Shown one piece after another: positions 17,091 through 61,723 of a DNA stretch of 64,000 bases (positions are counted from its first letter, which is position 1; each line of letters starts with the position of its first letter). The stretch covers positions 234,361 through 298,360 of the forward strand of contig JBBTSD010000001.1 of NCBI GenBank assembly GCA_038064835.1. The letters are read 5' to 3'. A program made the translations under genes and the position numbers. The notes under the pieces are model-generated. The model had not been told where the DNA came from and searched no databases. It saw only the letters and a list, made by a program, of their open reading frames with translations. Source of the stretch: Patescibacteria group bacterium. Its GTDB lineage: Bacteria; Patescibacteriota; Minisyncoccia; Phycocordibacterales; UBA2100.

Positions 17091-17101
17091 CACCACTCTC
17101 T

Positions 17102-20100
17102 ATGCAAAAACGAGATTCAATTCCGCACGACTTCACCGAACTGACTGTGAAGCTTGCGTCGCCAGAGCGAGCACTGGAGTGGTCACATGGTGAAGTGACG
17201 AAGCCAGAAACTATCAACTACCGCACCCAACGCCCAGAAAAGAGCGGACTATTCGATGAGAAAATATTCGGTCCAGAGCGCGACTACGAATGTTACTGCA
17301 GTAAGTACCGAGGCATCCGCTTCAAAGGTATTGTGTGTGAAAAATGTGGCGTCGAAATTACCCGCGCTATCGTCCGGCGCGAGCGCATGGGCCACATTGA
17401 TTTGGCCACCCCGGTGGCGCACATCTGGTATCTTCGCAACATTCCTTCGCGCATCGCGCTCATCCTCGGTCTCTCATCAGGAGATGCAGAAAAAGTGGTC
17501 TACTTCGCTGGCTATATTATCGTCAAAGTAAATCCTGAAGAGAAAACTCGAGTGCTCAAAGATCTCGAGCAGGAGCTTGAAATCAAGGTAAAGGCGGCAA
17601 ACAACGATGCAGAAAAGCTCCGCCTCAAGAATTTGGCGACACAGGCAAAGAAAGATATCGAACATATCGAAGTGGGTGCAGTTTTGGACGAAGCGGCATA
17701 TCACCTTTCTGCGGTGAAATATGGCGCATTCTTCGAAGCTGAAATCGGTGCAGAAGCCCTGTACACAATTCTTAAGAATATCAACATGACGAAGCTTCTT
17801 GAGGAGCTTAAAAAGAAACTCGAAAAGGCCCCAGCATCAGATCGCGAAAAGCTCAAGCGCCGAGTGTCGCTCGTGGAAACCATGCACCGTGCAGGCATTC
17901 GCCCTGAGTGGATGTTCCTCACGCGCCTACCAGTGGTGCCACCGGCACTTCGTCCGATGGTCGCGCTCGAAGGAGGACGCCATGCATCGTCAGATCTCAA
18001 TGATCTCTACCGTCGTGTCATCAACCGCAACAATCGTCTCAAGAAATTGCTTTCAATCAAGGCGCCAGAAGTTATTTTGCGCAACGAGAAGCGTATCTTG
18101 CAGGAGGCGGTGGATGCACTCATGGATAACACCATCCGCAAGAACAGTGGTTCCGGTGCGGTCCTCGGTGCTCGCCGTCGCGAACTCAAGTCGCTTGCAG
18201 ACTACTTGAAGGGCAAGCACGGATACCTCCGCCAAAACCTTCTCGGTAAGCGCGTCGACTACTCGGGTCGTTCAGTCATTGTTGTTGGTCCAGAGTTGGA
18301 TCTCGATGAATGCGGTTTGCCAAAGCATATGGCGCTTGAGCTTTTCCGTCCGTTTGTGATTGCGGGACTTCTCGAACGAGAACTTGCTTACAACATCCGT
18401 GGTGCCGGGCGGCTTATCGAAGACGGTGTGCCGGAAGTCTGGGCGATTCTGGAAGATGTCATCAAAGACAAACATGTTCTTTTGAACCGCGCACCAACGC
18501 TTCACCGCCAAAGTTTCCAAGGATTTCGTCCGACTCTTATCGAAGGAAACGCAATTCAGCTGCACCCGCTCGTATGTTCAGCCTTCAACGCTGACTTCGA
18601 CGGCGACCAGATGGCCGTGCATGTGCCACTTTCGCCAGAAGCACAGTGGGAAGCGCGTGAAATCATCTCGGCCAACAAAAACATCCTCAAGCCAGGATCT
18701 GGTGAGCCAGTGGTTATGGCGAAACTCCTTGATATCCTCCTTGGCTGTTACTGGATGACACAGGAAATTCCAGGACTTAAGGGCGAGGGGACAGCATTCC
18801 CGACAGCAAATGCGGCAATCACTGCACTTGATTTTGGTCATGTCGATATTCGCGCAAAAATCTGGGTCTTGCCAAGCAAGAACGAAAAGTACGCACAGTA
18901 CAACGGGGAGCGCTTCGAGACTACTATCGGAAGACTTCTCTTCAACTCATCTCTTCCAAACGACTTCCCGTACATCAACGAAGCGGTTGTTTCGAAAAAG
19001 ATGCGCAGTATCGTTGGCGACCTGGTCAAGCGCTATGGTCTCAGTGGCATTCCCGCAATCATCAACAAGGTAAAAACATTCGGTTTCAACAACGCGACGC
19101 GCGCAGGTATTACCTGGGGCCTTTCCGACCTCAAGACACCAAAATCAAAACCACAGATTGTGAAGGATGGCCAAGACCAAGTTGCAGAATATTGGCGCCA
19201 ATACAACGATGGACTTCTCACAGAACGCGAACGCTACCTCAAGGTCATCGAAGCATGGACATCGGTTAGTGATCGTATTCGCAAGGCGCTGGTGGAAGAG
19301 CTCGATCCGACTACTTCCGTACACAACATGGCTATATCTGGTGCTCGTGGCTCGATTGGTAACTTGCATCAGATGGCGGGCATGAAGGGGCTCATCACCA
19401 ACCCACGCGGAGAGACAATCGAATTCCCGATTATTGCTTCGATGAAAGAAGGACTTACTCCGATTGAGTATTTCATTTCAACTCACGGCTCGCGAAAAGG
19501 TTTGGCTGACACCGCACTCAACACCGCTCGCGCAGGGTACCTCACCCGTCGCCTCTTCGATGTGGCACAGGATGTTGTGGTGCTCGAAGACGATTGTGGT
19601 ACAAAAGATTCCATTGTCATCAAACGACCAGGCAAGGAAAATCTCGGTAGTGGTTTTGCTGACCGCTTAAGCGGGCGTGTCCTCGCAGACGCTATACCAG
19701 GCACCGAATGGAAACGAGGCGATCTCTTGAGTGCGCTCGATGCGCAAAAAGTGGAGCCACTTCCAGTATCTGAAGTATCTGTGCGCTCACCGATGACTTG
19801 CGCAACCATGCGTGGCGTTTGTCGAAAGTGCTATGGGATCGATCTTGCAACACAAGAAATGATTGATGTGGGTGAAGCTGTTGGTGTGGTGGCGGCCCAG
19901 GCGATCGGTGAGCCAGGGACCCAGCTGACTATGCGTACATTCCATGCCGGTGGTGTGGCGGCTGCAGGGGGCGACATCACCATGGGTCTGCCACGCGTGG
20001 AAGAGGTATTCGAACGACGCAAGCCGAAAGTTCCTGCAGTAGTTTCTCGCATTAACGGTACCGTCACCAGCATCGAAGAGGTTGAAGGAGAGATGATGAT

Positions 20101-20785
20101 TCGTGTTACTCCTGAAAGTGGCAAGGGTGGTAAGCGCGATACTGAATACACCATTCACCCCGCACGCATCATTCATGTAAAGGCTGGAGACACTGTCGTG
20201 AAGGGACAGTTCCTCACTGACGGCTCTGCAAACCTCGAAGACCTCTTTGCCTATTCGGGTCGCACAGCTACACAGGAGTACATCATCGAAGAGATTACAC
20301 GCATCTACGAAATGCAGGGCGCCTCAATCTCGCGCAAACACCTCGAACTTATCGTGAAGCAAATGTTCTCGCGCGTTACCATCACTGATGTTGGTGACAC
20401 CGAGTTTTCGTCCGATGACACAATCGAAGATTTCGAAGTTGAGCGCATTAACAAAAAGATGAAGGCAGAGGGCAAGGAACCTGCAAAGAGCAAGCCATTG
20501 GTTCTGGGTATTGCAGAAGTCGCACTTACTCGGAGTAGCTTCCTTTCATCGGTTTCTTTCCAGCACACGACACGGAAAGTCGTTGAGTCGTCGCTTGCTG
20601 GTACGGTAGATACGCTGATCGGGCTTAAAGAGAATGTGATTGTTGGCCGGCTTATTCCAGCCGGTACTGGATTCAAGGGAAGTCCAAAATACAATCGCCT
20701 CAAGGCACTTCAAGCAGAGATTTACAAGGATGTTGAAGAGCGAGAGCCGCGCGAGCGCCGTCCGCAGTCCGACGACCGCTCCTAA
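17102..20785 (+). CDS. rpoC: DNA-directed RNA polymerase subunit beta'
   Basis: 1227 aa. Has the zinc motif CxxYxxxRxxGxxCxxC and the catalytic NADFDGDQM motif. Confidence 0.97.
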   Translation: MQKRDSIPHDFTELTVKLASPERALEWSHGEVTKPETINYRTQRPEKSGLFDEKIFGPERDYECYCSKYRGIRFKGIVCEKCGVEITRAIVRRERMGHIDLATPVAHIWYLRNIPSRIALILGLSSGDAEKVVYFAGYIIVKVNPEEKTRVLKDLEQELEIKVKAANNDAEKLRLKNLATQAKKDIEHIEVGAVLDEAAYHLSAVKYGAFFEAEIGAEALYTILKNINMTKLLEELKKKLEKAPASDREKLKRRVSLVETMHRAGIRPEWMFLTRLPVVPPALRPMVALEGGRHASSDLNDLYRRVINRNNRLKKLLSIKAPEVILRNEKRILQEAVDALMDNTIRKNSGSGAVLGARRRELKSLADYLKGKHGYLRQNLLGKRVDYSGRSVIVVGPELDLDECGLPKHMALELFRPFVIAGLLERELAYNIRGAGRLIEDGVPEVWAILEDVIKDKHVLLNRAPTLHRQSFQGFRPTLIEGNAIQLHPLVCSAFNADFDGDQMAVHVPLSPEAQWEAREIISANKNILKPGSGEPVVMAKLLDILLGCYWMTQEIPGLKGEGTAFPTANAAITALDFGHVDIRAKIWVLPSKNEKYAQYNGERFETTIGRLLFNSSLPNDFPYINEAVVSKKMRSIVGDLVKRYGLSGIPAIINKVKTFGFNNATRAGITWGLSDLKTPKSKPQIVKDGQDQVAEYWRQYNDGLLTERERYLKVIEAWTSVSDRIRKALVEELDPTTSVHNMAISGARGSIGNLHQMAGMKGLITNPRGETIEFPIIASMKEGLTPIEYFISTHGSRKGLADTALNTARAGYLTRRLFDVAQDVVVLEDDCGTKDSIVIKRPGKENLGSGFADRLSGRVLADAIPGTEWKRGDLLSALDAQKVEPLPVSEVSVRSPMTCATMRGVCRKCYGIDLATQEMIDVGEAVGVVAAQAIGEPGTQLTMRTFHAGGVAAAGGDITMGLPRVEEVFERRKPKVPAVVSRINGTVTSIEEVEGEMMIRVTPESGKGGKRDTEYTIHPARIIHVKAGDTVVKGQFLTDGSANLEDLFAYSGRTATQEYIIEEITRIYEMQGASISRKHLELIVKQMFSRVTITDVGDTEFSSDDTIEDFEVERINKKMKAEGKEPAKSKPLVLGIAEVALTRSSFLSSVSFQHTTRKVVESSLAGTVDTLIGLKENVIVGRLIPAGTGFKGSPKYNRLKALQAEIYKDVEEREPRERRPQSDDRS

Positions 20786-20836
20786 AAGATGTAATTCTTG
20801 GGTGGATGTATCGTCTAGAGCAGTTCGATACATGCT

Positions 20837-23074
20837 CTAGTATTCCATCCCACCCCACTCAATCACACTGAATCCCGTGCGCGTGAATGACTGCAAATTT
20901 TGCGGAACAACCTCAGTGAATGTGTCGCGTGGCTTGAATGCCATGAATACACGCAGTACTGAGTCTGGTTGTGGCGAGATGGTGAGTGGAGCGCTCTCGG
21001 TGTATGCACTGCCAACAAAATGAATGAAGTTGTACGGATTATGTTGCATTTTCGGAAGCCAGAAAACGATGAATTCGTTATATTCGCGCGGAGTGAGTCC
21101 GAGTTTTGCAAGTGTGGTCTGTAGGAACGCACGCGTTTCGCTTCCTTTTACAACGAAGCCGTGGGTCTCGTCCACTCCGATGGGGTAGTGCGCCCCCTCC
21201 CAAAAGAGGTAGCTGTATTCGCGAGCGTTGCTTATGAGTGTGCCATCGGGATGTGCTGTAACGCGCCACCCCCCGATTGCGTCGTCGTATTCTGGATAGG
21301 TTGTGGAAAGTGTACCCTTGAATTGCAGGCCCACAGTCACTTCCTGCGTCTGTGTTGGATATAGATATATGACAGGTTTTAGAGCAATTGGGTAGGGATA
21401 TGGGTACGGAGTTCCCGTTTCAACTCTAGTCCACGCGCCATTGTCGCACTTATACCGGACAAGAATCCCTGGGCCGCAACCGACGACACACGCGACAGCA
21501 CTTGCTGCATTTGTGAGCACAAACGCCGCGGTACGGCTTCTTGAGTAGTCGACTCCCGATGATGATACAGGGCTGAAAGGAAGAATGGTGCCGTGGGGAT
21601 ATTCTTGGCCGTTAAAAGTACAGGCTAGGTCTGTTCTTAAAACACCAACGATTTGTATGCGCGCAGTTCGTGACAGTTGACTTCCCGGCGGGCCGTATGA
21701 AAGACGCAGTGTGTAGGGTATGGTTCCCTGTGCAGATGGATAGGTGTGTACATGCTCCTGCGCATCTGTGCTCGCGTTACAGCCTACCGTGGTGTGCGCA
21801 CGAGTGATTGGAGTGCTACCGTCGCCCCAATCAAGAGTAAATCCAGTGCACCCATTTTCAAGTGTGAAGCGGGCCTGGACTTGTCTCACCACACCGCCAA
21901 AGCCAGGAACAACAGACAAGTCATTCGCCGATGCAAATCCACTCGCGGCTTCACTCACTGATACGGTTTCTACTCTGGCTGCGTTGGTGTAGGCACCAAC
22001 CTGTGTCGTGGGGAGCGGATAGAGTTTGACAACTTTTGCACCCGGGGTGTCATAGCGATGGGTGATGCTAAATTCGGTTGGGCGACATGAGTCTCCTGGG
22101 TAAACCAAGGGAATTCGGTCGCCATCACCGAAATCCAGAGTATATTCGCCTCCGCCACACGATGCAGCTCCGTTGACGCGCACACTAAAGTTAACGGAGA
22201 GGGGTGCGACTCCTGACAGAGGAGAGGCAGTCAACGAGTCGGGAAAAATGGTTTTTGATTGTGTAGGTGGCGCATCTGCGACACGCACCGTGACGGCAGT
22301 TTTGTGCGCGCCAGATGATAGGGTTACCAGATAACTGCCCGGGAGTGCATAAGTATGAGCAATCGACTGAGTCATTTCGACACAGCGCGTTGCTGGGACC
22401 GACAGCTCGAATGGCGTAGTGCCGTCACCAAAATCAAGAAGATAGCTAGATCGTTCACATGAGCGCGAGGTATTTACCGTAGCAGTGGCGGTGACGGTGA
22501 GCGGTGCGCCGCCCGAGATGGGCTCTACCCGAATAAATGCGCCGACTTCTGTAGGGATGACAGAAGGACACCCTTCGGCAAGGGCCTTTCTGGTCCTCGG
22601 GCCGACACGGCCATAGCCAGTGCTCGTATATTCACCAACGGATACAATGCCACAGGAAACTTGGAAACGGCGAACGGCTGTTTCGGTGAGTGAGAGATAT
22701 CGTCCTGAGACGACACCTTCAGGATATATAGAGAAGTCTTGCGCCAAGAATGATTGAAGTCTCGCCACATCTTCTCCATTGCTTCCGCGGGCAATGTCAC
22801 GCGTTAGGAAAAGGCCACCGTGAAGCAGACTACCACTTTCTAAGTTTGTATTGGAACTTGAGGGGGTGTTTTTCAAATAGGGGGTAGTATTTGTGTTTGT
22901 CGGTTGCCCTCCCAAGTCGTTCTGAAGCATTTTGATTCGGTCGAGAAGTACTTTTATTTCTGATTCGAGTTCGGCTGAAGTTTGAGCGTGCGATATGAGT
23001 GGCAAGATGACCAGAGACAGGAGTAGTCCAACCACCACCTTCTGTACGCATATATGAGTAGTCATAGGCCTCAT
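20837..23074 (-). CDS. Large secreted protein with peptidoglycan-binding (PG_binding_1-like) domain and three PKD-like domains
   Basis: Signal peptide. ARLQSFLAQ...VRRFQ matches the PG-binding helix pair. DFGDGT, DFGDGD and DWGDGS are PKD signatures. It is convergent with rpoC. Confidence 0.7.
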   Translation of the reverse strand: MRPMTTHICVQKVVVGLLLSLVILPLISHAQTSAELESEIKVLLDRIKMLQNDLGGQPTNTNTTPYLKNTPSSSNTNLESGSLLHGGLFLTRDIARGSNGEDVARLQSFLAQDFSIYPEGVVSGRYLSLTETAVRRFQVSCGIVSVGEYTSTGYGRVGPRTRKALAEGCPSVIPTEVGAFIRVEPISGGAPLTVTATATVNTSRSCERSSYLLDFGDGTTPFELSVPATRCVEMTQSIAHTYALPGSYLVTLSSGAHKTAVTVRVADAPPTQSKTIFPDSLTASPLSGVAPLSVNFSVRVNGAASCGGGEYTLDFGDGDRIPLVYPGDSCRPTEFSITHRYDTPGAKVVKLYPLPTTQVGAYTNAARVETVSVSEAASGFASANDLSVVPGFGGVVRQVQARFTLENGCTGFTLDWGDGSTPITRAHTTVGCNASTDAQEHVHTYPSAQGTIPYTLRLSYGPPGSQLSRTARIQIVGVLRTDLACTFNGQEYPHGTILPFSPVSSSGVDYSRSRTAAFVLTNAASAVACVVGCGPGILVRYKCDNGAWTRVETGTPYPYPYPIALKPVIYLYPTQTQEVTVGLQFKGTLSTTYPEYDDAIGGWRVTAHPDGTLISNAREYSYLFWEGAHYPIGVDETHGFVVKGSETRAFLQTTLAKLGLTPREYNEFIVFWLPKMQHNPYNFIHFVGSAYTESAPLTISPQPDSVLRVFMAFKPRDTFTEVVPQNLQSFTRTGFSVIEWGGMEY

Positions 23075-26437: not shown

Positions 26438-26974
26438 ATGTCCAGTGTTTTACGAGTTTTACGAAAAGTAGCCAGCGTTGGCACCCCCACCGAGCCTGCT
26501 CCCGAGGCTGTTTTCGTTGCAAAAGAGCTACCTGTAGGGGAGAACTTGCGCAAAGCCATTGAACAATTATATGGCGGACGGGCACTGCGTATTCGACATG
26601 TGGATGCAGGATCGAACAATGGAGAGGAATATGAAATGACGGCACTCAACAATGCCTTCTACGACATCGAACGATTCGGCCTTTCTTTCGTCGCGTCTCC
26701 TCGACATGCGGATGTGCTCACCGTTTCCGGTCCGGTGACGAGAAATATGGAACACGCCCTGCGGGTGTGTTATGAAATGACACCTGCTCCGAAAATAGTG
26801 ATTGCTGTGGGTGATGGTGCATGCACCGGCGGTATCTGGAAAGACTCCTATGCAGTTGTTGGCGCTGTCGAAAATGTCATTCCTGTTGATCTCAAAATAC
26901 CGGGTGATCCGCCATCACCCAACGAGATTCTTTCAGGGATTCTGCATGCGCTGACGCATGCGCGAGTTCGTTGA
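26438..26974 (+). CDS. NuoB / group-4 hydrogenase small-subunit homolog lacking 3 of 4 Fe-S cysteine ligands (EhrS-like)
   Basis: It aligns to NuoB: RHVDAGSNNGEEYE replaces the CCxxE motif, IAVGDGACTGG replaces GSCAxSGG, and IPGDPP replaces GCPP. The conserved DIERFG and RHADVL regions are retained. Confidence 0.75.
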   Translation: MSSVLRVLRKVASVGTPTEPAPEAVFVAKELPVGENLRKAIEQLYGGRALRIRHVDAGSNNGEEYEMTALNNAFYDIERFGLSFVASPRHADVLTVSGPVTRNMEHALRVCYEMTPAPKIVIAVGDGACTGGIWKDSYAVVGAVENVIPVDLKIPGDPPSPNEILSGILHALTHARVR

Positions 26975-28940
26975 TATTTCTATGGGCTTACTTACTGAAC
27001 TTTTGGTGATTACTGGGTGCGCCGCACCATGTGTCGCGGGTTTTGTGGTTCTCCTTGCCCCGCACCGGAACACGGTCATGCAATCAGTGCTTGTTCTCGG
27101 TTCTCTCGCCGGCTTTTGCGGGACCATCCTTTCGTTCTTTATTGAGAATCCAATTTTCGCGTTGCTCGCACCATACACTATGGTTGACGCGGTGTCTTTG
27201 TTCTTTCTGTTGCTTGTTTTTGCAGGAACGGGCATCACCTCGTTTTTTGCCATCGCGTATGTACCACTATACAAGTATGCATTTCCCGCATCACGCGTGA
27301 ACGGAGCAACAGCATTTTTTGTGACCGGTATGCTGGGTGTTGTAGTTGCAGGGAGCGTTCCGCTGTTCCTTTTCTTTTGGGAAGTAATGTCTATAGCAGC
27401 ATACTTTCTGGTAGTTTCTGATCGTTCGGCAGAATCTATTAAGGCCGGACTCATTTACTTCGTCATGACCCATCTGGGGCTTGTTTCACTCCTTGGTGGA
27501 TTTGCGCTGATTGCGCCCGACTCGATTTTTGCTACCTGGCAAGATGTGGTAATTGCCGCGGGCGGAGCGTCCTACTGGTCGTTGGCGTTTGCCTTCGCGC
27601 TTTTCTGCATTGGATTTGGGTCAAAGGCTGGAATAGTGCCATTTCACGCATGGCTTCCGTATGCTCATCCGCAAGCTCCAAGTCACTCATCCGCACTTCT
27701 CTCTGGCGTTATGCTTCCTGTCGCTGTGTTTGGTTTTATTCGCATCAGCTCGCTATTTCCCTTTATCCCATTTGAATGGGCGTGCATGGTGATTGCGGCA
27801 GGACTCCTCTCCGCCTTCTTCGGGTCACTGCACGCCGCTGTCGAAAAAGATATGAAAAGACTGCTTGCCTATTCGTCAATTGAGCACATGGGGCTGATCT
27901 TTACCGGCATAGGCGTTCTATTGGTCTTGAAAACCGCACCACATGAAATTGCGGGGCCACTCATCGAGGGGGTTTCATTGTTCATAGCGCTTCATCTCGT
28001 CAATCATATGTTTTTCAAGGCAGGGCTTTTTATGTCTGCTGGTATCGTCGCCGCTAAGACACACACACGAAACCTGGATGAGTTGGGAGGTCTCGCAAAA
28101 CGCTGGCCTCTCTTTTCTGGGGGCGTTTTGCTCCTCTCGCTTTCGGCAGCAGCTCTTCCGCCTCTCGGTACTTTTTTTGGTGAGTGGGCTTTGATGCAAT
28201 CACTCGCACTCGGTATTGCTCAGCTACCTTTGCTTTTTGCGGGCGTTCTTTCCATTGTGCTTATGGTTGTCGCGCTCGCTGCTGGTCTTGCGCTCCTGGC
28301 ATCAATCAAATTGTTTAGTGTTGCATTCTTGGGACGAGCGCGTACAGAAAAAGCGGCGCATGTTGAGTCCTTGCCGTGGTCTTTGATGCTGGCTCCTCTG
28401 TTCTGTGCGGTGGGAGGGGTTCTTACTGCATTTATTGCCGTTCCATTTTTTGCGGCCCACACAATGCGGGGGGCAAACATTGTGTTTTCAGACATTAGTC
28501 TTGCCCCGACTGCCAGCGTAAATGTATGGGCGACTGCTGCCACGGTCCTCGTATTGGCCGGTCTCATACTGCTAGTGAGACGCTTGTTTGGTGCAGAAAA
28601 AGTTCGTATCACGGCAACATGGGATTGTGGTGCGCCACTCACGCCACGGATGCAATACACTGCAACAGGATTTGCAGGACCCGTTCGCTTCTTTTTTCGC
28701 CCGTTTCTCTTTTTAAAGAAAACACTCACCGTGACCCCGCTTGCAGGACATTCGTGGATTGCGAGTCGCGTGCTCATTTCAGAAGTAGGATCTGTCTGGG
28801 AGCGATGGGTGTACCAGCCTGTTGCGGATAGTGTGCTTTCAGTCGCGTCGTATGCAGCGCGTATACAAAGCGGAATAGTTCAGGTATATATTCTCATAAT
28901 TTTTGTGACCCTGGTTGCAACACTTACGCTCGCCATATGA
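26958..28940 (+). CDS. NuoL/MnhA-like antiporter-type membrane subunit (HyfB/EhrA-like)
   Basis: 660 aa, about 16 TM segments. WLPYAHPQAPSHSSALLSGV matches the NuoL/M/N signature [22 protein letters not shown]. The start overlaps the stop of the preceding gene. Confidence 0.75.
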   Translation: MREFVDISMGLLTELLVITGCAAPCVAGFVVLLAPHRNTVMQSVLVLGSLAGFCGTILSFFIENPIFALLAPYTMVDAVSLFFLLLVFAGTGITSFFAIAYVPLYKYAFPASRVNGATAFFVTGMLGVVVAGSVPLFLFFWEVMSIAAYFLVVSDRSAESIKAGLIYFVMTHLGLVSLLGGFALIAPDSIFATWQDVVIAAGGASYWSLAFAFALFCIGFGSKAGIVPFHAWLPYAHPQAPSHSSALLSGVMLPVAVFGFIRISSLFPFIPFEWACMVIAAGLLSAFFGSLHAAVEKDMKRLLAYSSIEHMGLIFTGIGVLLVLKTAPHEIAGPLIEGVSLFIALHLVNHMFFKAGLFMSAGIVAAKTHTRNLDELGGLAKRWPLFSGGVLLLSLSAAALPPLGTFFGEWALMQSLALGIAQLPLLFAGVLSIVLMVVALAAGLALLASIKLFSVAFLGRARTEKAAHVESLPWSLMLAPLFCAVGGVLTAFIAVPFFAAHTMRGANIVFSDISLAPTASVNVWATAATVLVLAGLILLVRRLFGAEKVRITATWDCGAPLTPRMQYTATGFAGPVRFFFRPFLFLKKTLTVTPLAGHSWIASRVLISEVGSVWERWVYQPVADSVLSVASYAARIQSGIVQVYILIIFVTLVATLTLAI

Positions 28941-29872
28941 CACTTCTTTTCGCATGTATAAATACCATAGTGATTGTTGCGATCGCCCCACTGACCATTG
29001 GTATAATCCGGAAAGGAAAGGCATATTTGCAGAATAGAAGAGGAGCATCAATTTTTCTCCCATACCTGCAAATTGCGTCACTTATGCGCAAGGAGATGAC
29101 TATAACGGAACATAGCTCATGGGTCTTTCGTAGTGTCCCGTTCGTTGTGCTTGCTAGCGCACTTTTTATAACTATCGCTATTCCTGCGGTGGTTATCGGA
29201 GTGATGCCCAGTGCCCTCACTAATATATTTGTGGTTGTGGGTGCGCTTGCGTTTGGTGCGGTTTTTCTCGTGATGGGCGGAATGGATACCGCTAGCACAT
29301 TTGGCAACATGGGATCCAGTCGAGAAATGACATTATCCGCTCTCGTAGAGCCCGTGATTGTTATCACCCTCTCCACACTTGCACTTCTGGCGGGGAGTTG
29401 GGGAGTGGACGGTATTCTTACAAACGCAGTTTTGAATCCATGGGCAGATGGTGGGGCATTCGCACTCACGCTTTGCGCGCTTCTGTTGATTACACTTCTT
29501 GAAAATGCTCGTTATCCAGTCGACAACCCTGCAACCCATCTCGAGCTGACCATGGTGCATGAGGCAATGATTTTAGAGTACTCGGGCCCGTATCTCGCGC
29601 TACTTGAATATGCAGCGGCAATCAAGCTTACAGTGATGGCTGTTTTTGTAGCAAACCTTGCGCTGCCATACGGACTGGTGGTGGCACCAGTATCGCTTGT
29701 AGGCATTCTGGTGGGCATCAGTTTGTTCTGCGGGAAGGTCGGACTTGCTGCCTTGGTGATTGCGCTAGTAGAGACCCTGGTTGTAAAAATGCGTTTCTAT
29801 CGAATGCAAGAGTATGTGTTACTCTCGCTTGCATTTGCCCTCGCTGGCTTGAGTGTTGCTCTACTCACCTAA
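28937..29872 (+). CDS. NuoH/HycD-like membrane subunit (EhrB-like)
   Basis: 311 aa. IRKGKAYLQNRRGASIFLPYLQ resembles the N-terminal loop motif of the NuoH/HycD family. ATGA start/stop overlap. Confidence 0.65.
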   Translation: MTLLFACINTIVIVAIAPLTIGIIRKGKAYLQNRRGASIFLPYLQIASLMRKEMTITEHSSWVFRSVPFVVLASALFITIAIPAVVIGVMPSALTNIFVVVGALAFGAVFLVMGGMDTASTFGNMGSSREMTLSALVEPVIVITLSTLALLAGSWGVDGILTNAVLNPWADGGAFALTLCALLLITLLENARYPVDNPATHLELTMVHEAMILEYSGPYLALLEYAAAIKLTVMAVFVANLALPYGLVVAPVSLVGILVGISLFCGKVGLAALVIALVETLVVKMRFYRMQEYVLLSLAFALAGLSVALLT

Positions 29873-29880
29873 TACATAGT

Positions 29881-30528
29881 ATGACTTCACTATCAGATAT
29901 AATTGTTATTTTTTCAGGCGGTATCTTGCTGGTGTCATTTTTCATGGTAAGCAGGATGCGCCTGAGGACAATGGTTTCTTTGTTCCGTGCGCAGTCTCTC
30001 TTGCTCGCTGGGTACACCAGTGTACTCGCACTTATTCTGGACGAGCCTGCCATGCTCATACCCGCCGGATTGATATTTGTTGCGAAAGTATTCGCCGTGC
30101 CTTACTTGATTCGTTCGTCCAGTAGGCGGATGAACGCTTCAGAGCGCCTCTCCTCCTTCTTGCGTCCTACAGGGTTATCAATTGCGGCACTTGTTTTAAT
30201 TAGCGGAGCTTTTCTCGTCGCACAATCACTGCCGTTCACTACATCAGAGCAGGGGATTGTGGGTACCGCTTTTGCTCTTATTGCACTCGGGTTTCTTCTG
30301 CTTGTAACACGCACAGATATGTATGGGCAGACGCTCGGTTTTCTGACGCTCGAAAATGGCATTTTTGCTTTCGGGCTTTCGCTCACCCATGGTATGCCGT
30401 TACTTGTCGAGCTCGGCGTTGTATTCGATGTTATGGTTGCATTCCTTCTGATGACGGCACTGTTGGCGAGAGCCCAAAAAGAATACCGATCAGTAGGTAC
30501 TGAAAACTTACGCGAGCTTATCGGCTAA
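29881..30528 (+). CDS. Small polytopic membrane subunit (HyfE/EhrC-like)
   Basis: 215 aa with about 6 TM segments. The size and operon position correspond to HyfE. Confidence 0.45.
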   Translation: MTSLSDIIVIFSGGILLVSFFMVSRMRLRTMVSLFRAQSLLLAGYTSVLALILDEPAMLIPAGLIFVAKVFAVPYLIRSSSRRMNASERLSSFLRPTGLSIAALVLISGAFLVAQSLPFTTSEQGIVGTAFALIALGFLLLVTRTDMYGQTLGFLTLENGIFAFGLSLTHGMPLLVELGVVFDVMVAFLLMTALLARAQKEYRSVGTENLRELIG

Positions 30529-30536
30529 TTACTTGT

Positions 30537-32015
30537 ATGCTTCCTTCTCTCCTACTGCTCTCATCTTTGGCAAGTGGCGTGCTGGTATTTATAGTGCGGC
30601 CCGATCGATTTGTGTGGGGGGTTGCTTTTCTCGGCTCATGCATTGCTCTGGGGTTTGGAGTTTTTGTTGGAGTCATTGCGATCACTGGTGGTGGGATTTT
30701 TGGAGGGGGTGCATGGTACCTCAATGGGATCACCGGCGTTATGGTGGTCTTGATAGCAGTGATTCAATTCACTGCGACACTCGTGAGTATTTCACATCTC
30801 TCACATGAAGTGCATCACCAGGTGGTGACAGTGGCGCAGGCGCGCCGTTACTTTGCACTCCTGTCACTCTTCACTCTTTCTATGTTTGCTAGCGTGATGG
30901 CCAACAACCTGGGCATTCTGTGGGTTGCTCTGGAAGCAACGACCCTCGCAACCACGCTTCTTGTCGCATTCTATGCCCGTCCAGGATCACTGGAGGCCGC
31001 GTGGAAGTATCTCACGCTCTGTTCTGTAGGAATTGCTATCGGACTCTTGGGTCTTTTTGTGGCCTACTATGCTGCCTATGTTGCCCATGTGGGCGATCGC
31101 CTCACCAGTATCCAGTGGACAACATTGTTCGAAAACGCACACCTCCTTTCTCCCGAACTTATGCAGTTTGCATTTGTCCTTGTGCTCATCGGTTATGGCA
31201 CTAAGGCGGGATTTGCGCCAATGCACGCATGGCTTCCCGATGCACATTCTCGCGCCCCTGCGCCTATCTCAGCACTTCTTTCCGGAGTGCTTTTACCTGT
31301 TGCTTTTTTTGCAGTGATTCGTTTCAAGGCAATCGTTGATGGAGCGATGGGTGGAAGCGAATGGAGCAGCAGCCTCCTTATCATCTTTGGTGTGTTTTCT
31401 ATAGTAGTTAGCGCGATTTTTATCGTGCGGCAAAGTGATTACAAACGACTGCTTGCCTATTCATCGATCGAACATATGGGTATTGCGGCGTGTGCTTTTG
31501 CACTTGGTGCCTTCGGATCGGTTATTGGTCTAGTGCACATTGTCGGGCACGCTCTCATCAAGTCCGCCTTGTTCTTTGGTGCGGGCGAATTGTTCCTTCG
31601 TTTCAAAACAACGCTCTGTTCCCGTGTTGGTTTTATTTCAGAAACACTTCCACTGACCGCGACATCATTCACTATCGCTCTAGGTGCGTTACTGGCTATC
31701 CCCCCGTCTCCTCTTTTCTTTACTGAGTATCAGCTCGTGTTGTATGGCATGCGCTTTGAGCCGCTTTCTATTTCGCTCCTGCTTGTTGCTTTGGTGGTTA
31801 CCGCGGCTGGCTTCATGAGAACTGTGGTGCCTCTTTTAGTGGCACCAGCGACTGCTGTTGAAACACATGAAGTCCCCAAGGGTGAGTTCTGGACATTGGC
31901 TCATGTAGCAGTGTATGTGCACTTGCTGCTTGCCGTTATGTTGGGTGTTATGGTATGGACGCCACAAGGCCTGGCCTTTTTTGCGCATATTAGTATGGTG
32001 TCACCACACATATGA
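30537..32015 (+). CDS. NuoM/N-like antiporter-type membrane subunit (HyfF/EhrD-like)
   Basis: GYGTKAGFAPMHAWLPDAHSRAPAPISALLSGV is the canonical antiporter-subunit motif. 492 aa. Confidence 0.75.
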   Translation: MLPSLLLLSSLASGVLVFIVRPDRFVWGVAFLGSCIALGFGVFVGVIAITGGGIFGGGAWYLNGITGVMVVLIAVIQFTATLVSISHLSHEVHHQVVTVAQARRYFALLSLFTLSMFASVMANNLGILWVALEATTLATTLLVAFYARPGSLEAAWKYLTLCSVGIAIGLLGLFVAYYAAYVAHVGDRLTSIQWTTLFENAHLLSPELMQFAFVLVLIGYGTKAGFAPMHAWLPDAHSRAPAPISALLSGVLLPVAFFAVIRFKAIVDGAMGGSEWSSSLLIIFGVFSIVVSAIFIVRQSDYKRLLAYSSIEHMGIAACAFALGAFGSVIGLVHIVGHALIKSALFFGAGELFLRFKTTLCSRVGFISETLPLTATSFTIALGALLAIPPSPLFFTEYQLVLYGMRFEPLSISLLLVALVVTAAGFMRTVVPLLVAPATAVETHEVPKGEFWTLAHVAVYVHLLLAVMLGVMVWTPQGLAFFAHISMVSPHI

Positions 32016-33550
32016 CCCTTTCATTATTGCGCGAACAAATAGGTGTGGCACAAGGGTCGAACGATCTTGTTTCGATTGCCAGAGCCGAGTTTCGTACTAT
32101 GGCCGTGCGTTGTGTGCAGGCGGGTGCGCCACTGGTGTTTATGTACGCGCTTGACGAGCGATCGACGCGTCGTGTGTTTGTTGTGCGTGCAGTGTTTTCT
32201 GTGCCTGGATCGGGATTCCTCACCCTCACCGTCGATGTTCCTGAGCAAGAGTTATCCTACCCGTCTCTAACTACGGAAATCATGGCCGCCCACTGGTTCG
32301 AACGGCTTATCTTCGATCAGTATGGTCTAGTGGCTGAAGAGCATCCAGATTGGAGGCGACTCATGCATCATGAAAATATTCCTGCACATGTGTACCCGTT
32401 GCGCAAGGATTTTGCGTGGAACACCAAGCTTCCTTATGCGAGCGAACCATATCCCATGCACGCGGTGCAGGGCGATGGTATCTATGAAATCCCTGTGGGA
32501 CCAATTCACGCAGGAATTATTGAGCCAGGTCACTTTCGTTTCAATGTACGAGGTGAGAGAATCGTCACACTCGAAGGAAAGTTGTTTTTCAAACATAAAG
32601 GAGTAGAAAAACTAGTCGAAGGAAAAACCCCTGCAGAGGCACTGCCTTTTATTGAACGGGTGTCCGGTGACATGGTAGTGGCACATACACTTGCGTTTGC
32701 AGAAGCAGTTGAGCACGCATCCGGCATGTCAATAAGTGCGCGTGCTGATTCGTTGCGTATGCTGTGGCTCGAAATGGAGCGACTCACGGCTCATATCTTT
32801 GACATTGGCAACATGGGGGGTATGGGGACTGGATTTACTTTCATGGCGGCGCAGTGTTTTCGTGTAGTTGAGGAGTTACGACGCATGCACTATGCAATTG
32901 TTGGGCATCGATATCTCCGGGGTGCAATCACGCTTGGCGGCGCTCACGATATTAGTCAAAAGAATAGAGAAGATCTCGATGCGTTACTGACAAAGGTTGA
33001 AACCGAGCTCGAGACGCTTTGCGGGATTGCGTATGCGAATGATGGCCTCATGGAACGATTTGAAACAACCGGGGTTCTTTCTCGTGCTGCAGCGATTGCC
33101 TACGGTGCGCGTGGAGTGCCGGCCAGAGCATCTGGTGTTACTAGTGACATGCGTCGCGATCATCCGTCAGGTGCTTATACTCGCATCCCGGTAACGGTTG
33201 CTACCAAGACTTCTGGGGATGTGCGCGCACGGTTTTCGGTCCGTGTCCTTGAATGTGCAGAATCTCTTCGTTTGGCTCGTCTCTGTTTGACGCAACTGCC
33301 ACAAGGACCGGCATATACAAAGTTTTCGGTGCATGCAGGAAGTTCGCTTGGATGGGCTGAAAGTTTCCGTGGAGCAGTCATTGATTGGGTACGCATTGAC
33401 ACATCGGGAAAGTTGGATCGTGTAGCGATATCCGATCCGTCATTCTGTAACTGGTCACTGTTCGGAGAAATTGGCCCCGGCAACATCGTCCCCGATTTTC
33501 CTTTGTGTAACAAAAGCCTTAACCTGTCGTACTCAGGAACCGATCTGTAG
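32012..33550 (+). CDS. Fused NuoC-NuoD / hydrogenase large-subunit homolog without Ni-Fe binding cysteines (EhrL-like)
   Basis: N-terminal NuoC-like region, then a NuoD/HycE-like region (GPIHAGIIEPGHFRF). No N-terminal CxxC is present. The C-terminal motif is DPSFCNW instead of DPCxxCxxH. ATGA overlap with the upstream gene. Confidence 0.75.
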   Translation: MTLSLLREQIGVAQGSNDLVSIARAEFRTMAVRCVQAGAPLVFMYALDERSTRRVFVVRAVFSVPGSGFLTLTVDVPEQELSYPSLTTEIMAAHWFERLIFDQYGLVAEEHPDWRRLMHHENIPAHVYPLRKDFAWNTKLPYASEPYPMHAVQGDGIYEIPVGPIHAGIIEPGHFRFNVRGERIVTLEGKLFFKHKGVEKLVEGKTPAEALPFIERVSGDMVVAHTLAFAEAVEHASGMSISARADSLRMLWLEMERLTAHIFDIGNMGGMGTGFTFMAAQCFRVVEELRRMHYAIVGHRYLRGAITLGGAHDISQKNREDLDALLTKVETELETLCGIAYANDGLMERFETTGVLSRAAAIAYGARGVPARASGVTSDMRRDHPSGAYTRIPVTVATKTSGDVRARFSVRVLECAESLRLARLCLTQLPQGPAYTKFSVHAGSSLGWAESFRGAVIDWVRIDTSGKLDRVAISDPSFCNWSLFGEIGPGNIVPDFPLCNKSLNLSYSGTDL

Positions 33551-33600
33551 AATTCGGTCACATCTTCCAAAAAAGAAGTCCGCACTAATGCGGACTTTTG

Positions 33601-34290
33601 CTAACTAAGAAGTCGTTGGCGAATGACCGCCATAGCTTCTTTGCACATATGGGCATGAGAGAGAGCAGCGTTCAACATGTGCGGAACCTTCTGTCCGTGC
33701 CCGGGGTCGAAGTACGCGTCAATAATGGCCTCTTCTTTTTCGATAAAACTGTGGCAAGCATCTTTGCCCATCCCGACCAGCACAGAAGAGGCAAGATAAC
33801 AGCTAACAACTTCACTGTCCGCTCGGGTAATGAAATACTCGGGCGGCTCGATTCCCTGCTCTTTGATGCGCGCGGCCACAATACCGTGGTGCATTGAAAG
33901 GACTTCGTTGTCCACACTTTCGCAATCAACGCATGCGGTTGCGTAGAGAACGGCGTTAAGCCCATAGCCGTCAGTAATTACGACATCATGTGCCGCGAGC
34001 GCTGGCTTCAAGTGTCGCGCATTGAATTCATTCAGGTGCGCCCAACATTTGAATAGGCGCGTTACAGGGTGCTGTGTTCGCTCACTTTCAGCCCATAAAA
34101 GTGGGTGTGGCAGTTTCCCAAACGGGTCCTCCAGGAAGGCACATGAATGTTGAGGAAATGTGATTGGCACCGTGCGCTTGAGTCCTTTGAATACCTCTGT
34201 TCGTCCGCTTCCTCGCATTCCTGAAACGGAAAAGAAATGGACTTTCTTGGCAGACTGGCTCTGCTGTTTCTGTGCTGTGCTTTCGTGCAT
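33601..34290 (-). CDS. Thymidylate-kinase-like protein with atypical P-loop (GSGRTE, Lys to Arg)
   Basis: Aligns to dTMP kinase: VSGMRGSGRTE versus EGxDGxGKTT, IKPALAAHDVVITDGYG versus IKPAL....VIxDRY, and a LID-like region. The track start is TTG 34344; the first ATG is 34290. Confidence 0.5.
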   Translation of the reverse strand: MHESTAQKQQSQSAKKVHFFSVSGMRGSGRTEVFKGLKRTVPITFPQHSCAFLEDPFGKLPHPLLWAESERTQHPVTRLFKCWAHLNEFNARHLKPALAAHDVVITDGYGLNAVLYATACVDCESVDNEVLSMHHGIVAARIKEQGIEPPEYFITRADSEVVSCYLASSVLVGMGKDACHSFIEKEEAIIDAYFDPGHGQKVPHMLNAALSHAHMCKEAMAVIRQRLLS

Positions 34291-34425
34291 GTAACCCTCT
34301 TTCAGTGCGGTCGCTATGGTACTCCGGGCATTGCTAGTTTTCAAATGATCTTTGTGTTATGGAAACAAGAAAAAGAAGGGCGCGAGCCTCACTTTTTGGA
34401 GCACTCTCTATGGTATAGTGCCCCC

Positions 34426-44163: not shown

Positions 44164-44613
44164 ATGACTAAAATTATCAAAATATCTGTGCGGCCTGCAC
44201 AAACAGGCGAAGGTCTTTTTGCTGATGCACCAATCCTCGAAGGTTCGGTGATTGTCGAGTATACCGGAGTCACTATGCCGACAACTGTTGCCGATACGCT
44301 CGCATCCCGTTTTCTCTTTGATTTGGAGAATGGGTGGACCATCGACGGAGAAGCCAAGAGCAACACCGCGCGTTATGTGAACCATGCCTGTGATCCCAAT
44401 AGTGAGGCAGAGATTGAAGGGAAACGCGTTTTGTTTCGGGCGGCGCGTAACATAGCTGCCGGAGAAGAAATAACTATCGATTATGGAGAAGAATATTTTG
44501 ATGAGTATATAAAACCGTATGGATGTTTGTGCGAGGAGTGTAAGAAAAAGCCGTCAGGTAAATACCTAACGGCTACTCCACCAACGACGGGGACGAACGG
44601 GGTGAATCGGTAG
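44164..44613 (+). CDS. SET-domain protein (putative lysine methyltransferase)
   Basis: ARYVNHACDPN, EEITIDYG and the post-SET CLCEEC. Confidence 0.75.
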   Translation: MTKIIKISVRPAQTGEGLFADAPILEGSVIVEYTGVTMPTTVADTLASRFLFDLENGWTIDGEAKSNTARYVNHACDPNSEAEIEGKRVLFRAARNIAAGEEITIDYGEEYFDEYIKPYGCLCEECKKKPSGKYLTATPPTTGTNGVNR

Positions 44614-46134: not shown

Positions 46135-46393
46135 GTGATGTGTATGATAGTGCTAAATGCTTTCTGCAATCGTCTTGAAAAAACCGACCCCTTTTCCTCT
46201 CGACGGCGCTGTGCCCAATAGTCTCCTCAGAGACTTCAGAGCCTGCATATCGGAATTACCCGATATGGCTATGATAACACGGGGCATACTGGAAGTCAAT
46301 CGGTACTACTTTGGATTGACGACTTCCCTGCACAGGCATATAAAGACTACAGGAAGAAGGAAGGGGCTCCTTGAAACAAGACAGGAGAAGGGA

Positions 46394-59546: not shown

Positions 59547-59578
59547 CGACCCCAGAGGCTCTTGGTGTGGATTATGAA

Positions 59579-59965: not shown

Positions 59966-59968
59966 GCT

Positions 59969-61714: not shown

Positions 61715-61723
61715 TGACTCGCT

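What the first reader, a model, noticed from the sequence alone, without database searches (positions are those of the whole stretch)
32012..33550. Large subunit is a NuoC-NuoD-type fusion with neither CxxC Ni-Fe motif
The 512-aa protein carries an N-terminal NuoC-like domain fused to a NuoD/HycE-like domain. Where hydrogenases have the N-terminal RxCGxCxxxH motif it reads IPVGPIHAGIIEPGHFRF. The C-terminal DPCxxCxxH is replaced by DPSFCNW, leaving a single Cys. Loss of both Ni-Fe motifs together with the small-subunit Cys loss means the hydrophilic arm carries no recognisable metal centre.
Basis: seen in the sequence. Interest (0 to 1): 0.6.

Follow-up and report, generated by a model that had tools for sequence, protein, structure and literature searches.

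The report
Cofactor-free hydrogenase-like membrane complex (Ehr)
This gene encodes the large subunit of an Ehr complex, a known relative of membrane hydrogenases and respiratory complex I, in a tiny-genome Parcubacteria (CPR) bacterium. This version has lost every metal-binding site in its soluble arm but keeps an intact ion-pumping membrane part, so it probably moves ions without any redox chemistry.

Summary
The ORF at 32012-33550 is real: 512 aa, a NuoC-like domain fused to a HycE/NuoD-like domain. It has no Ni-Fe cysteines. The true L1 equivalent is residues 216-225, RVSGDMVVAH (C->S, C->M). The true L2 equivalent is the extreme C-terminus, NLSYSGTDL (C->S, C->G).

The gene closes a six-gene operon (26438-33550): NuoB-like small subunit, HyfB-, HyfC/NuoH-, HyfE- and HyfF-like membrane subunits, then the large subunit. 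This is an Ehr complex (energy-converting-hydrogenase-related). A monophyletic, cysteine-less CPR clade of Ehr was already published (Jaffe 2020).

I found no report of three further points in the papers searched:
- The small subunit has lost all four [4Fe-4S] ligands (0 Cys in 120 homologues).
- No ferredoxin domain is present.
- The coupling loops and all pump residues are conserved as strictly as in cysteine-bearing relatives.

In some CPR relatives the operon sits directly after the ATP synthase genes.

The best reading is a redox-independent, Mrp-like ion translocator. The family identity is near certain. The mechanism is inferred.

The parts
26438..26974 (+). Small subunit (EhrS; NuoB/HycG/MbhJ-like), 178 aa. 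All four proximal [4Fe-4S] ligand positions are non-Cys: N60 (26615-26617), E63 (26624-26626), G127 (26816-26818), D157 (26906-26908).
   Evidence: Pfam Oxidored_q6. The alignment to MbhJ and HycG shows GSCNGC[DE] / GAC / PGCPP replaced by GSNNGEE / GDGA / PGDPP. There is no Cys at these positions in 120 homologues, and E63 and D157 are invariant.
26958..28940 (+). HyfB/NuoL-like antiporter-type subunit (EhrA), 660 aa, with a C-terminal extension carrying an invariant W555-D-C-G558 motif. It overlaps the small-subunit gene by 17 nt.
   Evidence: Pfam Proton_antipo_M; NCBIfam hydrogenase 4 subunit B at 1e-124. E142, K223, K354 and E409 are conserved in 69 of 69, 69 of 69, 69 of 69 and 67 of 69 aligned sequences. 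WDCG is present in 14 of 14 CPR-type sequences.
28937..29872 (+). HyfC/HycD/NuoH-like membrane anchor (EhrB), 311 aa. 4-nt overlap with the upstream gene.
   Evidence: Pfam NADHdh. Twenty charged, His or Tyr residues are kept in at least 13 of 14 CPR-type sequences, among them E130, E138, E189, D196, H201, E203, H208, E209 and E279. Nineteen of the twenty are also the majority residue in cysteine-bearing hydrogenase relatives. E224 is the exception.
29881..30528 (+). HyfE-like small membrane subunit (EhrC), 215 aa.
   Evidence: NCBIfam hydrogenase 4 membrane subunit at 6e-20, below the curated cut-off. K69, R144, E158 and E177 are conserved.
30537..32015 (+). HyfF/NuoN/MbhH-like antiporter-type subunit (EhrD), 492 aa.
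   Evidence: Pfam Proton_antipo_M; NCBIfam hydrogenase 4 subunit F at 1e-101. PDB best hits are MbsH and MbhH. E133, K223, K342 and E397 are conserved.
32012..33550 (+). Large subunit (EhrL), 512 aa: a NuoC-like domain fused to a HycE/NuoD-like domain. 4-nt overlap with the upstream gene.
   Evidence: The AF2 model has pLDDT 88.6 and pTM 0.91. The Foldseek top hit is HycE 7z0s_E at TM 0.89.
32132..32422 (+). NuoC-like (Complex1_30kDa) domain, aa 41-137.
   Evidence: Pfam E = 6e-16.
32489..32542 (+). Beta1-beta2 loop IPVGPIHAGIIEPGHFRF, aa 160-177. E171 aligns with MbhL E21.
   Evidence: Twelve of the 18 positions are invariant in 117 homologues and the other six are kept in at least 108 of 117. 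The segment VGP[IV]HAG.IEPGHFRF is shared with the cysteine-bearing relatives. Alignment to MbhL.
32654..32686 (+). True L1 equivalent E215-RVSGDMVVAH-225. It matches RxCGxCxxxH with the Cys replaced by S218 and M221, and carries the Ehr-specific D220.
   Evidence: HycE alignment. S218 in 109 of 117, G219 in 115 of 117, D220 in 103 of 117, H225 in 116 of 117. ER[VI]SGD recurs in Ehr of many phyla.
33434..33454 (+). DPSFCNW, aa 475-481. It is a conserved helix start, not a ligand motif.
   Evidence: It aligns with HycE ...ATYANW. C479 is kept in only 88 of 117 homologues. N480 and W481 are also near-invariant in the hydrogenase relatives.
33515..33547 (+). True L2 equivalent S502-LNLSYSGTDL-512. 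The Cys are replaced by S506 and G509. The protein ends where mature HycE ends, with no C-terminal maturation extension.
   Evidence: HycE alignment. S506, Y507, G509 and D511 are invariant in 117 homologues. Relatives read SFELCY[AS]CxDR in hydrogenases and SFNLSY[SA]GNDL in Ehr.
33576..33597 (.). 9-bp-stem hairpin between the convergent ends of the operon and the minus-strand gene 33601-34344. It is probably a shared terminator.
   Evidence: This is a pattern match only, and the scan totals are near shuffle expectation.

Best explanation
The gene encodes EhrL, the large subunit of a six-subunit Ehr complex (energy-converting-hydrogenase-related) in a Parcubacteria (CPR/Patescibacteria) bacterium.

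Shown here:
- The complex descends from Hyf/group-4f-type membrane [NiFe] hydrogenases.
- It has lost every redox-cofactor site: the Ni-Fe site, the proximal [4Fe-4S] cluster and the ferredoxin domain.
- It keeps, under strict purifying selection, the two antiporter-type subunits with their Glu/Lys charge chain, the NuoH-like anchor with its acidic channel and TM5-6 loop, the beta1-beta2 loop of the large subunit, and the WDCG loop of the HyfB-like subunit.

Inferred:
- Electron transfer is impossible, so the complex most likely works as a redox-independent ion translocator. This would be an Mrp-like cation/proton antiporter or converter of ion gradients.
- The cofactor-free arm would be retained as the cap and gate of the coupling chamber rather than as an enzyme.
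- It would serve pH and ion homeostasis together with the F1Fo ATP synthase in a cell that has no respiratory chain.
For: Identity:
- Pfam and NCBIfam hits for all six genes.
- HycE is the best PDB match by sequence (1.8e-60) and by fold (TM 0.89).
- The signature ER[VI]SGD...H / S[FL]NLSY[SA]G.DL is shared with 67 cysteine-less loci from many phyla. These carry the same six genes and sit next to 14 cysteine-bearing hydrogenase loci.
- Published descriptions of Ehr and of a CPR Ehr clade (PMC7304191; PMC6349859; PMC10284858).

Cofactor loss.

Intact pump:
- TM5 Glu, TM7 Lys, TM11 Lys and TM12 Glu are conserved in both antiporter-type subunits.
- Nineteen of the twenty conserved charged, His or Tyr residues of the NuoH-like subunit match those of the hydrogenase relatives.
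- The WDCG loop is conserved.

Selection: about 95 invariant columns in 117 large-subunit homologues at 51-70% identity, in genomes known for extreme reduction.

No partner: the flanks differ between relatives. None has FDH, NuoEF, hyp or ferredoxin genes.

Link to ion-motive force: ATP synthase genes lie immediately upstream on the same strand in L003, L012 and L094, and nearby in L007. That is 4 of 16 CPR-type loci against 0 of 65 others.

From my own knowledge: Mrp uses the same modules without redox chemistry, and deactive mitochondrial complex I shows Na+/H+ antiport (Roberts and Hirst 2012).
Against: - No transport assay exists for any Ehr, and its function is called unknown in every paper read.
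- The Na+-handling subunits of Mrp and MBH (MrpE/F/G, MbhA-C) are absent, so the path for a second ion is undefined.
- The former active-site segments are conserved far more strictly than a mere cap would seem to need, for example the invariant E171, H174, S506, Y507, G509 and D511. The Ehr-specific D220 and D475 look like gains, which hints at a retained site-specific function.
- The ATP synthase adjacency is seen in a minority of loci and is not corrected for phylogeny.
- AF2 leaves residues 163-170 and 502-512 below pLDDT 50, so the chamber could not be modelled.
Confidence: 0.45

Rival explanations
1. The arm is still catalytic or ligand-binding, but not redox. The conserved polar pocket that replaced the Ni-Fe site (S218, D220, S506, Y507, E171, H174, H225, D475) would bind an ion or small molecule. 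Its protonation or acid-base chemistry, for example CO2/HCO3- interconversion, would be coupled to ion translocation, as in NDH-1MS/CupA or DAB.
For: - The pocket-forming segments are invariant or nearly so in 117 homologues.
- The swaps x220D, S475D, E504N and R512L are fixed across Ehr of many phyla relative to the nearest hydrogenases.
- E171 aligns with the Glu next to the Ni-Fe site in MbhL.
- A beta-carbonic-anhydrase-like gene (CsoSCA_cat) directly flanks Ehr operons in two unrelated lineages, L093 and Thiobacillus L054. The latter also has a SulP anion transporter.
Against: - The carbonic-anhydrase neighbour occurs in only 2 of about 99 loci and is absent from the window.
- No ligand or metal site could be modelled.
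- Much of the conserved sequence, including the beta1-beta2 loop and NKS...Y..D, is shared with true hydrogenases. Its conservation may therefore reflect subunit interfaces rather than a new site.
Confidence: 0.2
2. It is still a redox-driven pump. It would use a cofactor or partner that sequence cannot reveal: a flavin, a non-cysteinyl metal centre held by E63/D157/D126 of the small subunit, or a soluble redox protein docking on the arm.
For: - Cys ligands were replaced by invariant carboxylates (E63, D157) rather than by random residues.
- Most other Ehr keep the proximal cluster, and some keep a ferredoxin domain, so the ancestral family function was probably redox.
- Authors have proposed partners such as FDH for other Ehr.
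Against: - An Fe-S cluster with no Cys ligand has no precedent known to me.
- There is no ferredoxin domain and no Fe-S motif in the window.
- Eight CPR-type contexts show no conserved partner gene.
- Neither quinone-site residues nor Ni-Fe ligands are present.
- CPR bacteria generally lack quinones and respiratory chains (PMC11665869).
Confidence: 0.1
3. It is a decaying relic of a hydrogenase operon with no present function.
For: All cofactor sites are lost. Loss appears stepwise across the family.
Against: - All six ORFs are intact with coupled overlaps.
- More than 100 homologues at 51-77% identity keep long invariant stretches and every pump residue.
- The operon is retained in roughly 1-Mb genomes.
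Confidence: 0.03
4. It is a genuine [NiFe] hydrogenase whose ligands were missed by misalignment.
Against: With the correct alignment, R216, G219, H225 and Y507, D511 line up exactly with the hydrogenase motifs, and the four Cys positions read S, M, S, G. The only invariant Cys, C499, aligns with Ile/Val in the hydrogenases.
Confidence: 0.01

Closest known systems
Ehr complexes (Ech-/energy-converting-hydrogenase-related; Geobacter EhrA-D/L/S, M. tuberculosis Rv0082-Rv0087, Nitrospira, Margulisbacteria), and specifically the CPR Ehr clade of Jaffe et al. 2020
   Same: - The same six-gene set.
- The same gene order as the actinomycete loci (small subunit first, large subunit last).
- A large subunit without Ni-Fe cysteines.
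- The same substitution signature, RxSGD / LSY[SA]G.
- Function unknown.

   Different: Of the 64 non-CPR Ehr loci examined here, the 43 with a scorable small subunit almost all keep its proximal-cluster cysteines at the positions scored. The exception is a Methanosarcinales/Dehalococcoidales clade of three loci. Four Ehr also keep an N-terminal ferredoxin domain. The window's clade and its CPR sister clade have lost them all. I found no statement of this in the papers I could read. Marreiros 2013 and Coppi 2005 were not available.
[quoted passage not shown]
   Same: - Fold (TM 0.89 to HycE) and the NuoC fusion.
- Hyf-type membrane subunits.
- An identical beta1-beta2 loop.
- The same charged residues in the NuoH-like subunit.

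   Different: - No Ni-Fe ligands.
- No proximal cluster.
- No ferredoxin domain or subunit.
- No C-terminal maturation extension.

Respiratory complex I NuoCD / NuoB (E. coli, Aquifex)
   Same: - A NuoC-NuoD fusion architecture that has lost the Ni-Fe cysteines.
- A structural match at TM about 0.8.

   Different: - The quinone-site His and Tyr are absent (I170, G219).
- The N2 cluster ligands are absent.
- No NuoI, E, F, G, A, J or K genes.

Mrp Na+/H+ antiporter
   Same: - It uses NuoL/M/N-type subunits with the same Glu/Lys chain.
- It works with no redox chemistry.
- It is the functional analogy proposed here.

   Different: - Mrp has no NuoB/C/D/H-like arm or anchor.
- Mrp has MrpC, E, F and G, which are absent here.
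The window's complex is therefore not a member of this family.
MBS/Mbx of Pyrococcus (membrane-bound sulfane reductase)
   Same: A group-4-derived complex that lost hydrogenase activity while keeping ion translocation (PMC8165549).
   Different: MBS keeps two of the four Ni-Fe cysteines, three Fe-S clusters and 13 subunits including an Mrp module. Here none of these is present.

Membership tests
[NiFe] hydrogenase, group 4 large subunit | L1 motif RxCGxCxxxH with two Cys ligands | tested here: not met
   It aligns to R216-V-S-G-D-M-V-V-A-H225. The Cys positions are S218 and M221. No Cys appears at 218 or 221 among the four commonest residues in 117 homologues.
[NiFe] hydrogenase, group 4 large subunit | L2 motif [DE][PL]CxxCxx[HR] with two Cys ligands | tested here: not met
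   It aligns to N504-L-S-Y-S-G-T-D-L512. S506 and G509 are invariant.
[NiFe] hydrogenase, group 4 large subunit | Homologous fold of the large subunit | tested here: met
   phmmer to HycE gives 1.8e-60. Foldseek gives TM 0.89.
[NiFe] hydrogenase, group 4 | Small subunit with a Cys4 proximal [4Fe-4S] cluster | tested here: not met
   The positions are N60, E63, G127 and D157, compared with MbhJ and HycG. No Cys occurs there in 120 homologues.
[NiFe] hydrogenase, group 4 | Hyp maturation genes and endopeptidase in the genome | not testable with these tools
   None is present in the 64-kb window, but the rest of the genome could not be read.
Complex I NuoD (49-kDa subunit) | Quinone-binding His in the beta1-beta2 loop and Tyr in the RxDY motif | tested here: not met
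   In the ungapped alignment to the fungal NUCM subunit 9iho_D, the His position is I170 and the Tyr position is G219.
Complex I NuoB | N2 cluster ligands (CC...C...C) | tested here: not met
Ehr complex | Group-4-type large subunit lacking the Ni-Fe cysteines | tested here: met
   The definition is as quoted in PMC6349859 and PMC10284858.
Ehr complex | Operon with small subunit, NuoH-like anchor, HyfE-like subunit and NuoL/N-type antiporter subunits | tested here: met
   The same set is found in 80 related loci.
Ehr complex | Groups with other Ehr rather than with hydrogenases or NuoD | tested here: met
   - Shared signature RxSGD / LSY[SA]G.
- The NJ tree places the clade among cysteine-less loci. 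This is a rough distance tree only.
- It agrees with the published tree of Jaffe 2020.
Mrp antiporter | Seven-subunit MrpA-G set including MrpC, E, F and G | tested here: not met
   Only two Proton_antipo_M subunits are present, with no MNHE, MrpF or MrpG hits. The resemblance is functional only.

The most novel reading that the evidence does not exclude
A complex-I-type coupling machine that runs with no redox centre at all. The re-tooled polar pocket at the former Ni-Fe site would bind an ion or a non-redox substrate such as CO2/HCO3-. This would drive, or be driven by, ion translocation. It would make the complex the missing generator or converter of ion-motive force for the ATP synthase of CPR bacteria.
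Probability: 0.2. Interest if true: 0.85.

Novelty: new variant of a known kind. Interest (0 to 1): 0.45.

Why it matters
[quoted passage not shown] They list as an open question whether the membrane charge axis and the three-loop cluster are the main transducing elements (PMC8165549). This complex is a natural variant that keeps the loops and the charge axis but has no cluster. It offers a direct test of that question.

[quoted passage not shown] This widely conserved complex lies next to the atp operon in several lineages, which makes it a concrete candidate component.

**Annotation.** The protein is labelled 'NADH-quinone oxidoreductase subunit C' or 'hydrogenase' in public records. Neither activity is possible for it.

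Tried and rejected
- **Cavity modelling.** AF2 with 30 sequences gave pLDDT 78.5, and with 117 sequences 88.6. The beta1-beta2 loop tip (residues 163-170) and the C-terminal L2 segment (residues 502-512) stayed below 50, so no pocket geometry is claimed.
- **Conserved redox partner.** Eight CPR-type genomic contexts and 80 GTDB loci were examined. No FDH, NuoEF, hyp or ferredoxin gene recurs.
- **Metagenome scan with the single protein.** It returned only 10 loci and added little.
- **Literature.** Marreiros 2013 could not be opened. A search for 'EhrL/EhrS' was swamped by electronic-health-record papers. Beam 2020 says nothing on these genes.
- **Na+ versus H+ specificity.** I hoped to read it from the ATP synthase c-subunit next to the operon, but the atpE genes lie outside the fetched loci.
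- **C499 as a possible ligand.** Rejected, because it aligns with Ile/Val in the hydrogenase relatives.
- **Promoter and terminator scan.** Counts were near shuffle expectation. Only the hairpin at 33576-33597 is worth noting.
Full report
**1. The observation**

The ORF at 32012-33550 (+) exists and encodes 512 aa. Pfam finds three domains:
- a NuoC-type Complex1_30kDa domain at aa 41-137;
- a short NiFeSe_Hases match at aa 196-262;
- Complex1_49kDa at aa 276-436.

The best solved relative is the E. coli formate hydrogenlyase large subunit HycE, itself a NuoC-fused group 4 enzyme. It matches by sequence (7z0s_E, E = 1.8e-60) and by fold (TM 0.89 for an AF2 model of pLDDT 88.6). The fused NuoCD subunits of E. 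coli and Aquifex complex I come next.

- In the HycE alignment, DRVCGICGFAH pairs with query E215-RVSGDMVVAH-225. R, G and H of RxCGxCxxxH are kept at exact spacing, and the two Cys are S218 and M221.
- SLDPCYSCTD pairs with S502-LNLSYSGTD-511, so those Cys are S506 and G509.
- The string IPVGPIHAGIIEPGHFRF is the beta1-beta2 loop upstream of L1.
- DPSFCNW lies about 25 residues before L2.

The conclusion of no Ni-Fe cysteines survives. The protein also stops at L512, which aligns with the Arg that ends the HycE L2 motif. From my own knowledge, this is the HycI cleavage site, so there is no C-terminal maturation extension. The HycE numbering C241/C244/C531/C534 is also from my own knowledge.

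The NuoD quinone pair is absent too. In the ungapped alignment to the fungal 49-kDa subunit 9iho_D, the His position is I170 and the Tyr position is G219.

**2. The operon**

The gene is last in a tightly packed six-gene operon at 26438-33550. Overlaps are 17, 4 and 4 nt, and gaps are 8 nt. The genes are, in order:

| Subunit | Size |
|---|---|
| NuoB/HycG-like small subunit | 178 aa |
| HyfB/NuoL-like | 660 aa |
| HyfC/NuoH-like | 311 aa |
| HyfE-like | 215 aa |
| HyfF/NuoN-like | 492 aa |
| Large subunit | 512 aa |

The flanks are dnaG and rpoD upstream and a UvrD/PD-(D/E)XK helicase downstream. No ORF in the 64-kb window has a CxxCxxCxxxC ferredoxin motif. Pfam scans of most of the other ORFs of 100 aa or more show no hyp genes or redox partner.

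**3. The small subunit**

Aligned to MbhJ and HycG, the four proximal-cluster ligands (GSCNGC[DE], GAC, PGCPP) read GSNNGEE, GDGA and PGDPP. These are N60, E63, G127 and D157. In 120 homologues none of these positions is ever Cys, and E63 and D157 are invariant.

**4. The family**

The exact protein is in NCBI from a Patescibacteria MAG (GCA_964361175.1). About 120 clusters at 51-70% identity come from Kaiserbacteria, Uhrbacteria, Minisyncoccota and other Parcubacteria.

Conservation across 117 full-length homologues is strict.
- The beta1-beta2 loop is almost unchanged. V162-A167, I170-F175, F177 and V179 are invariant, and G168, I169, R176 and N178 are kept in at least 108 of 117.
- The C-terminal D495-FPLCNKSLNLSYSGTD-511 is invariant or nearly so.
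- S218, G219, D220 and H225 are kept in 88-99% of sequences.

A scan of GTDB species genomes and a 1.8-billion-protein representative search give the wider picture. The cysteine-less signature ER[VI]SGD...H / S[FL]NLSY[SA]G.DL occurs in Rokubacteria, Nitrospirota, Chloroflexota, Actinomycetes, Acidobacteria, Thaumarchaeota, Methanosarcinales and others. It sits beside a smaller set of relatives that keep all four Cys (ER.CG.C / SFELCY.C.DR). Both groups carry the same six genes.

This is the Ehr family. Published work describes Ehr as follows:
- related to group 4 (4f) hydrogenases, lacking the CxxC motifs, and of unknown function (PMC6349859; PMC10284858; PMC4758237);
- the M. tuberculosis Rv0081-87 locus is counted as an Ehr (PMC6728331), and actinomycete loci in my set have the window's gene order;
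- Jaffe et al. 2020 reported that CPR sequences form a monophyletic subclade of Ehr without the metal-binding cysteines and 'likely cannot interact with H2' (PMC7304191).

The large-subunit observation is therefore not new.

**5. What goes beyond the published description**

*Stepwise cofactor loss.*
- The cysteine-bearing relatives have small subunits with an N-terminal extension of 120-160 aa. Seven of the eleven scored match a strict ferredoxin motif.
- Four Ehr keep that domain.
- Most Ehr keep only the proximal-cluster cysteines.
- The window's clade has none. Neither do its CPR-dominated sister clade (Daviesbacteria, Saccharibacteria, Falkowbacteria and others) nor, independently, a Methanosarcinales/Dehalococcoidales clade.
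- The tree is only a neighbour-joining sketch.

*The ion-translocating and coupling parts are untouched.*
- Both antiporter-type subunits keep the TM5 Glu, TM7 Lys, TM11 Lys and TM12 Glu.
- The NuoH-like subunit has twenty charged, His or Tyr residues kept in at least 13 of 14 CPR-type sequences. Nineteen of them are also the majority residue in the hydrogenase relatives, including the loop E189...D196...H201-E203...H208-E209.
- The C-terminal extension of the HyfB-like subunit keeps an invariant W-D-C-G. I take this, by inference, to be the NuoA/ND3-loop equivalent.

*Fixed swaps.* Relative to the nearest hydrogenases, Ehr show C218S, x220D, S475D/A476P, E504N, C506S, C509G and R512L. This looks like a re-tooled pocket rather than a degraded one.

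*Genomic context.*
- The operon moves as a self-contained unit with changing neighbours.
- F1Fo ATP synthase genes lie immediately upstream on the same strand in L003, L012 and L094, and close by in L007.
- That is 4 of 16 CPR-type loci against 0 of 65 others (Fisher p = 0.001, not corrected for phylogeny).

**6. Mechanism**

Electron transfer through the arm is excluded by sequence. Decay is excluded by conservation.

The most economical reading is a redox-independent ion translocator. It would be built like a hydrogenase or complex I but would work like Mrp. The arm would be kept as the cap and gate of the coupling chamber. From my own knowledge, Mrp itself and the Na+/H+ antiport activity of deactive complex I are precedents. 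This fits a fermentative cell that has an ATP synthase but no respiratory chain (PMC11665869). I give it 0.45.

Three points count against it:
- no dedicated second-ion subunits are present;
- the former active-site segments are more conserved than a cap would need;
- no experimental data exist for any Ehr.

The main rival, at 0.2, is that the polar pocket still binds an ion or a non-redox substrate and couples it to translocation. One lead supports it. A beta-carbonic-anhydrase-like gene flanks Ehr operons in a CPR-type locus (L093) and in a Thiobacillus (L054). The latter also carries a SulP transporter. That is 2 of about 99 loci only.

The other readings score lower:
- a hidden redox cofactor or partner, 0.1;
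- a relic, 0.03;
- a misaligned true hydrogenase, 0.01.

**7. Verdict**

- Observation: partly confirmed. The conclusion is right but the motif positions are wrong.
- Interpretation: supported.
- Identity: a member of the known Ehr family, in the CPR clade already published as cysteine-less.
- Distinct variant: the complete loss of Fe-S ligands with full retention of the coupling and pumping apparatus is a clade-wide variant. I did not find it described in the literature I could read.
- Interest: moderate.
- The mechanism remains inferred and needs biochemistry.

Noticed in passing
L093:3235-4293 and L054:12313-13368 (also L054:2609-4729): A beta-carbonic-anhydrase-like gene (Pfam CsoSCA_cat) sits directly beside Ehr operons on the same strand in a CPR-type bacterium and in a Thiobacillus (37% identity to each other). 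The Thiobacillus locus also has a SulP/STAS anion transporter upstream, and a LysR regulator and an Mrp operon downstream.
   Followed up: partly
L003:1-3701, L012:1-1864, L094:1-3958, L007:2854-3279 and 16187-21421: F1Fo ATP synthase genes lie immediately upstream of, or close to, the cofactor-free Ehr operon in four CPR-type loci from different subclades. None lies near the 65 other Ehr or hydrogenase loci.
   Followed up: partly
L037:8603-12280: In this Chloroflexota locus the large subunit keeps all four Ni-Fe cysteines. The small-subunit core reads GSENSCD / GDEACSGG / PGDPP, so most proximal-cluster ligands are lost, yet it retains an N-terminal 2x[4Fe-4S] ferredoxin domain. This is an odd combination.
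   Followed up: no
L069, L070, L074 (Dehalococcoidales, Methanosarcina, Methanosarcinales): This is a second, apparently independent clade of Ehr with a cysteine-less small subunit (GSDNS.E / GDDACDGG / PGNPP). Its large-subunit signature is SGDE.
   Followed up: partly
window 33601-34344 (-): This 247-aa gene has no Pfam match and converges on the end of the Ehr operon. A similarly placed gene without a Pfam match is seen in relatives (L002, L086; also L096 and L098 by position). It contains a P-loop-like GMRGSGRT.
   Followed up: no
window 46157-47065 (+): A MotA/TolQ/ExbB proton-channel family gene. The organism therefore has at least one consumer of ion-motive force encoded in the window.
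   Followed up: no
window 44164-44613 (+): A SET-domain protein (149 aa) in a CPR bacterium.
   Followed up: no
window 58155-63643 (+): A phosphomannomutase-type gene is followed by two tandem GH130 (mannoside phosphorylase) genes. Each GH130 gene has an N-terminal extension of 250-350 aa without a Pfam match.
   Followed up: no
window 51794-56464 (+) and 20837-23074 (-): Two large, probably surface-exposed proteins: one of 1556 aa with SpaA/SdrD prealbumin-like repeats and a peptidoglycan-binding domain, and one of 745 aa with a PKD domain.
   Followed up: no
window 28620-28631 (HyfB-like aa 555-558): The W-D-C-G motif in the C-terminal extension of the HyfB-like subunit is invariant in 14 of 14 CPR-type sequences. 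It reads W-x-C-G in most hydrogenase relatives. It is probably the NuoA/ND3 loop equivalent.
   Followed up: partly
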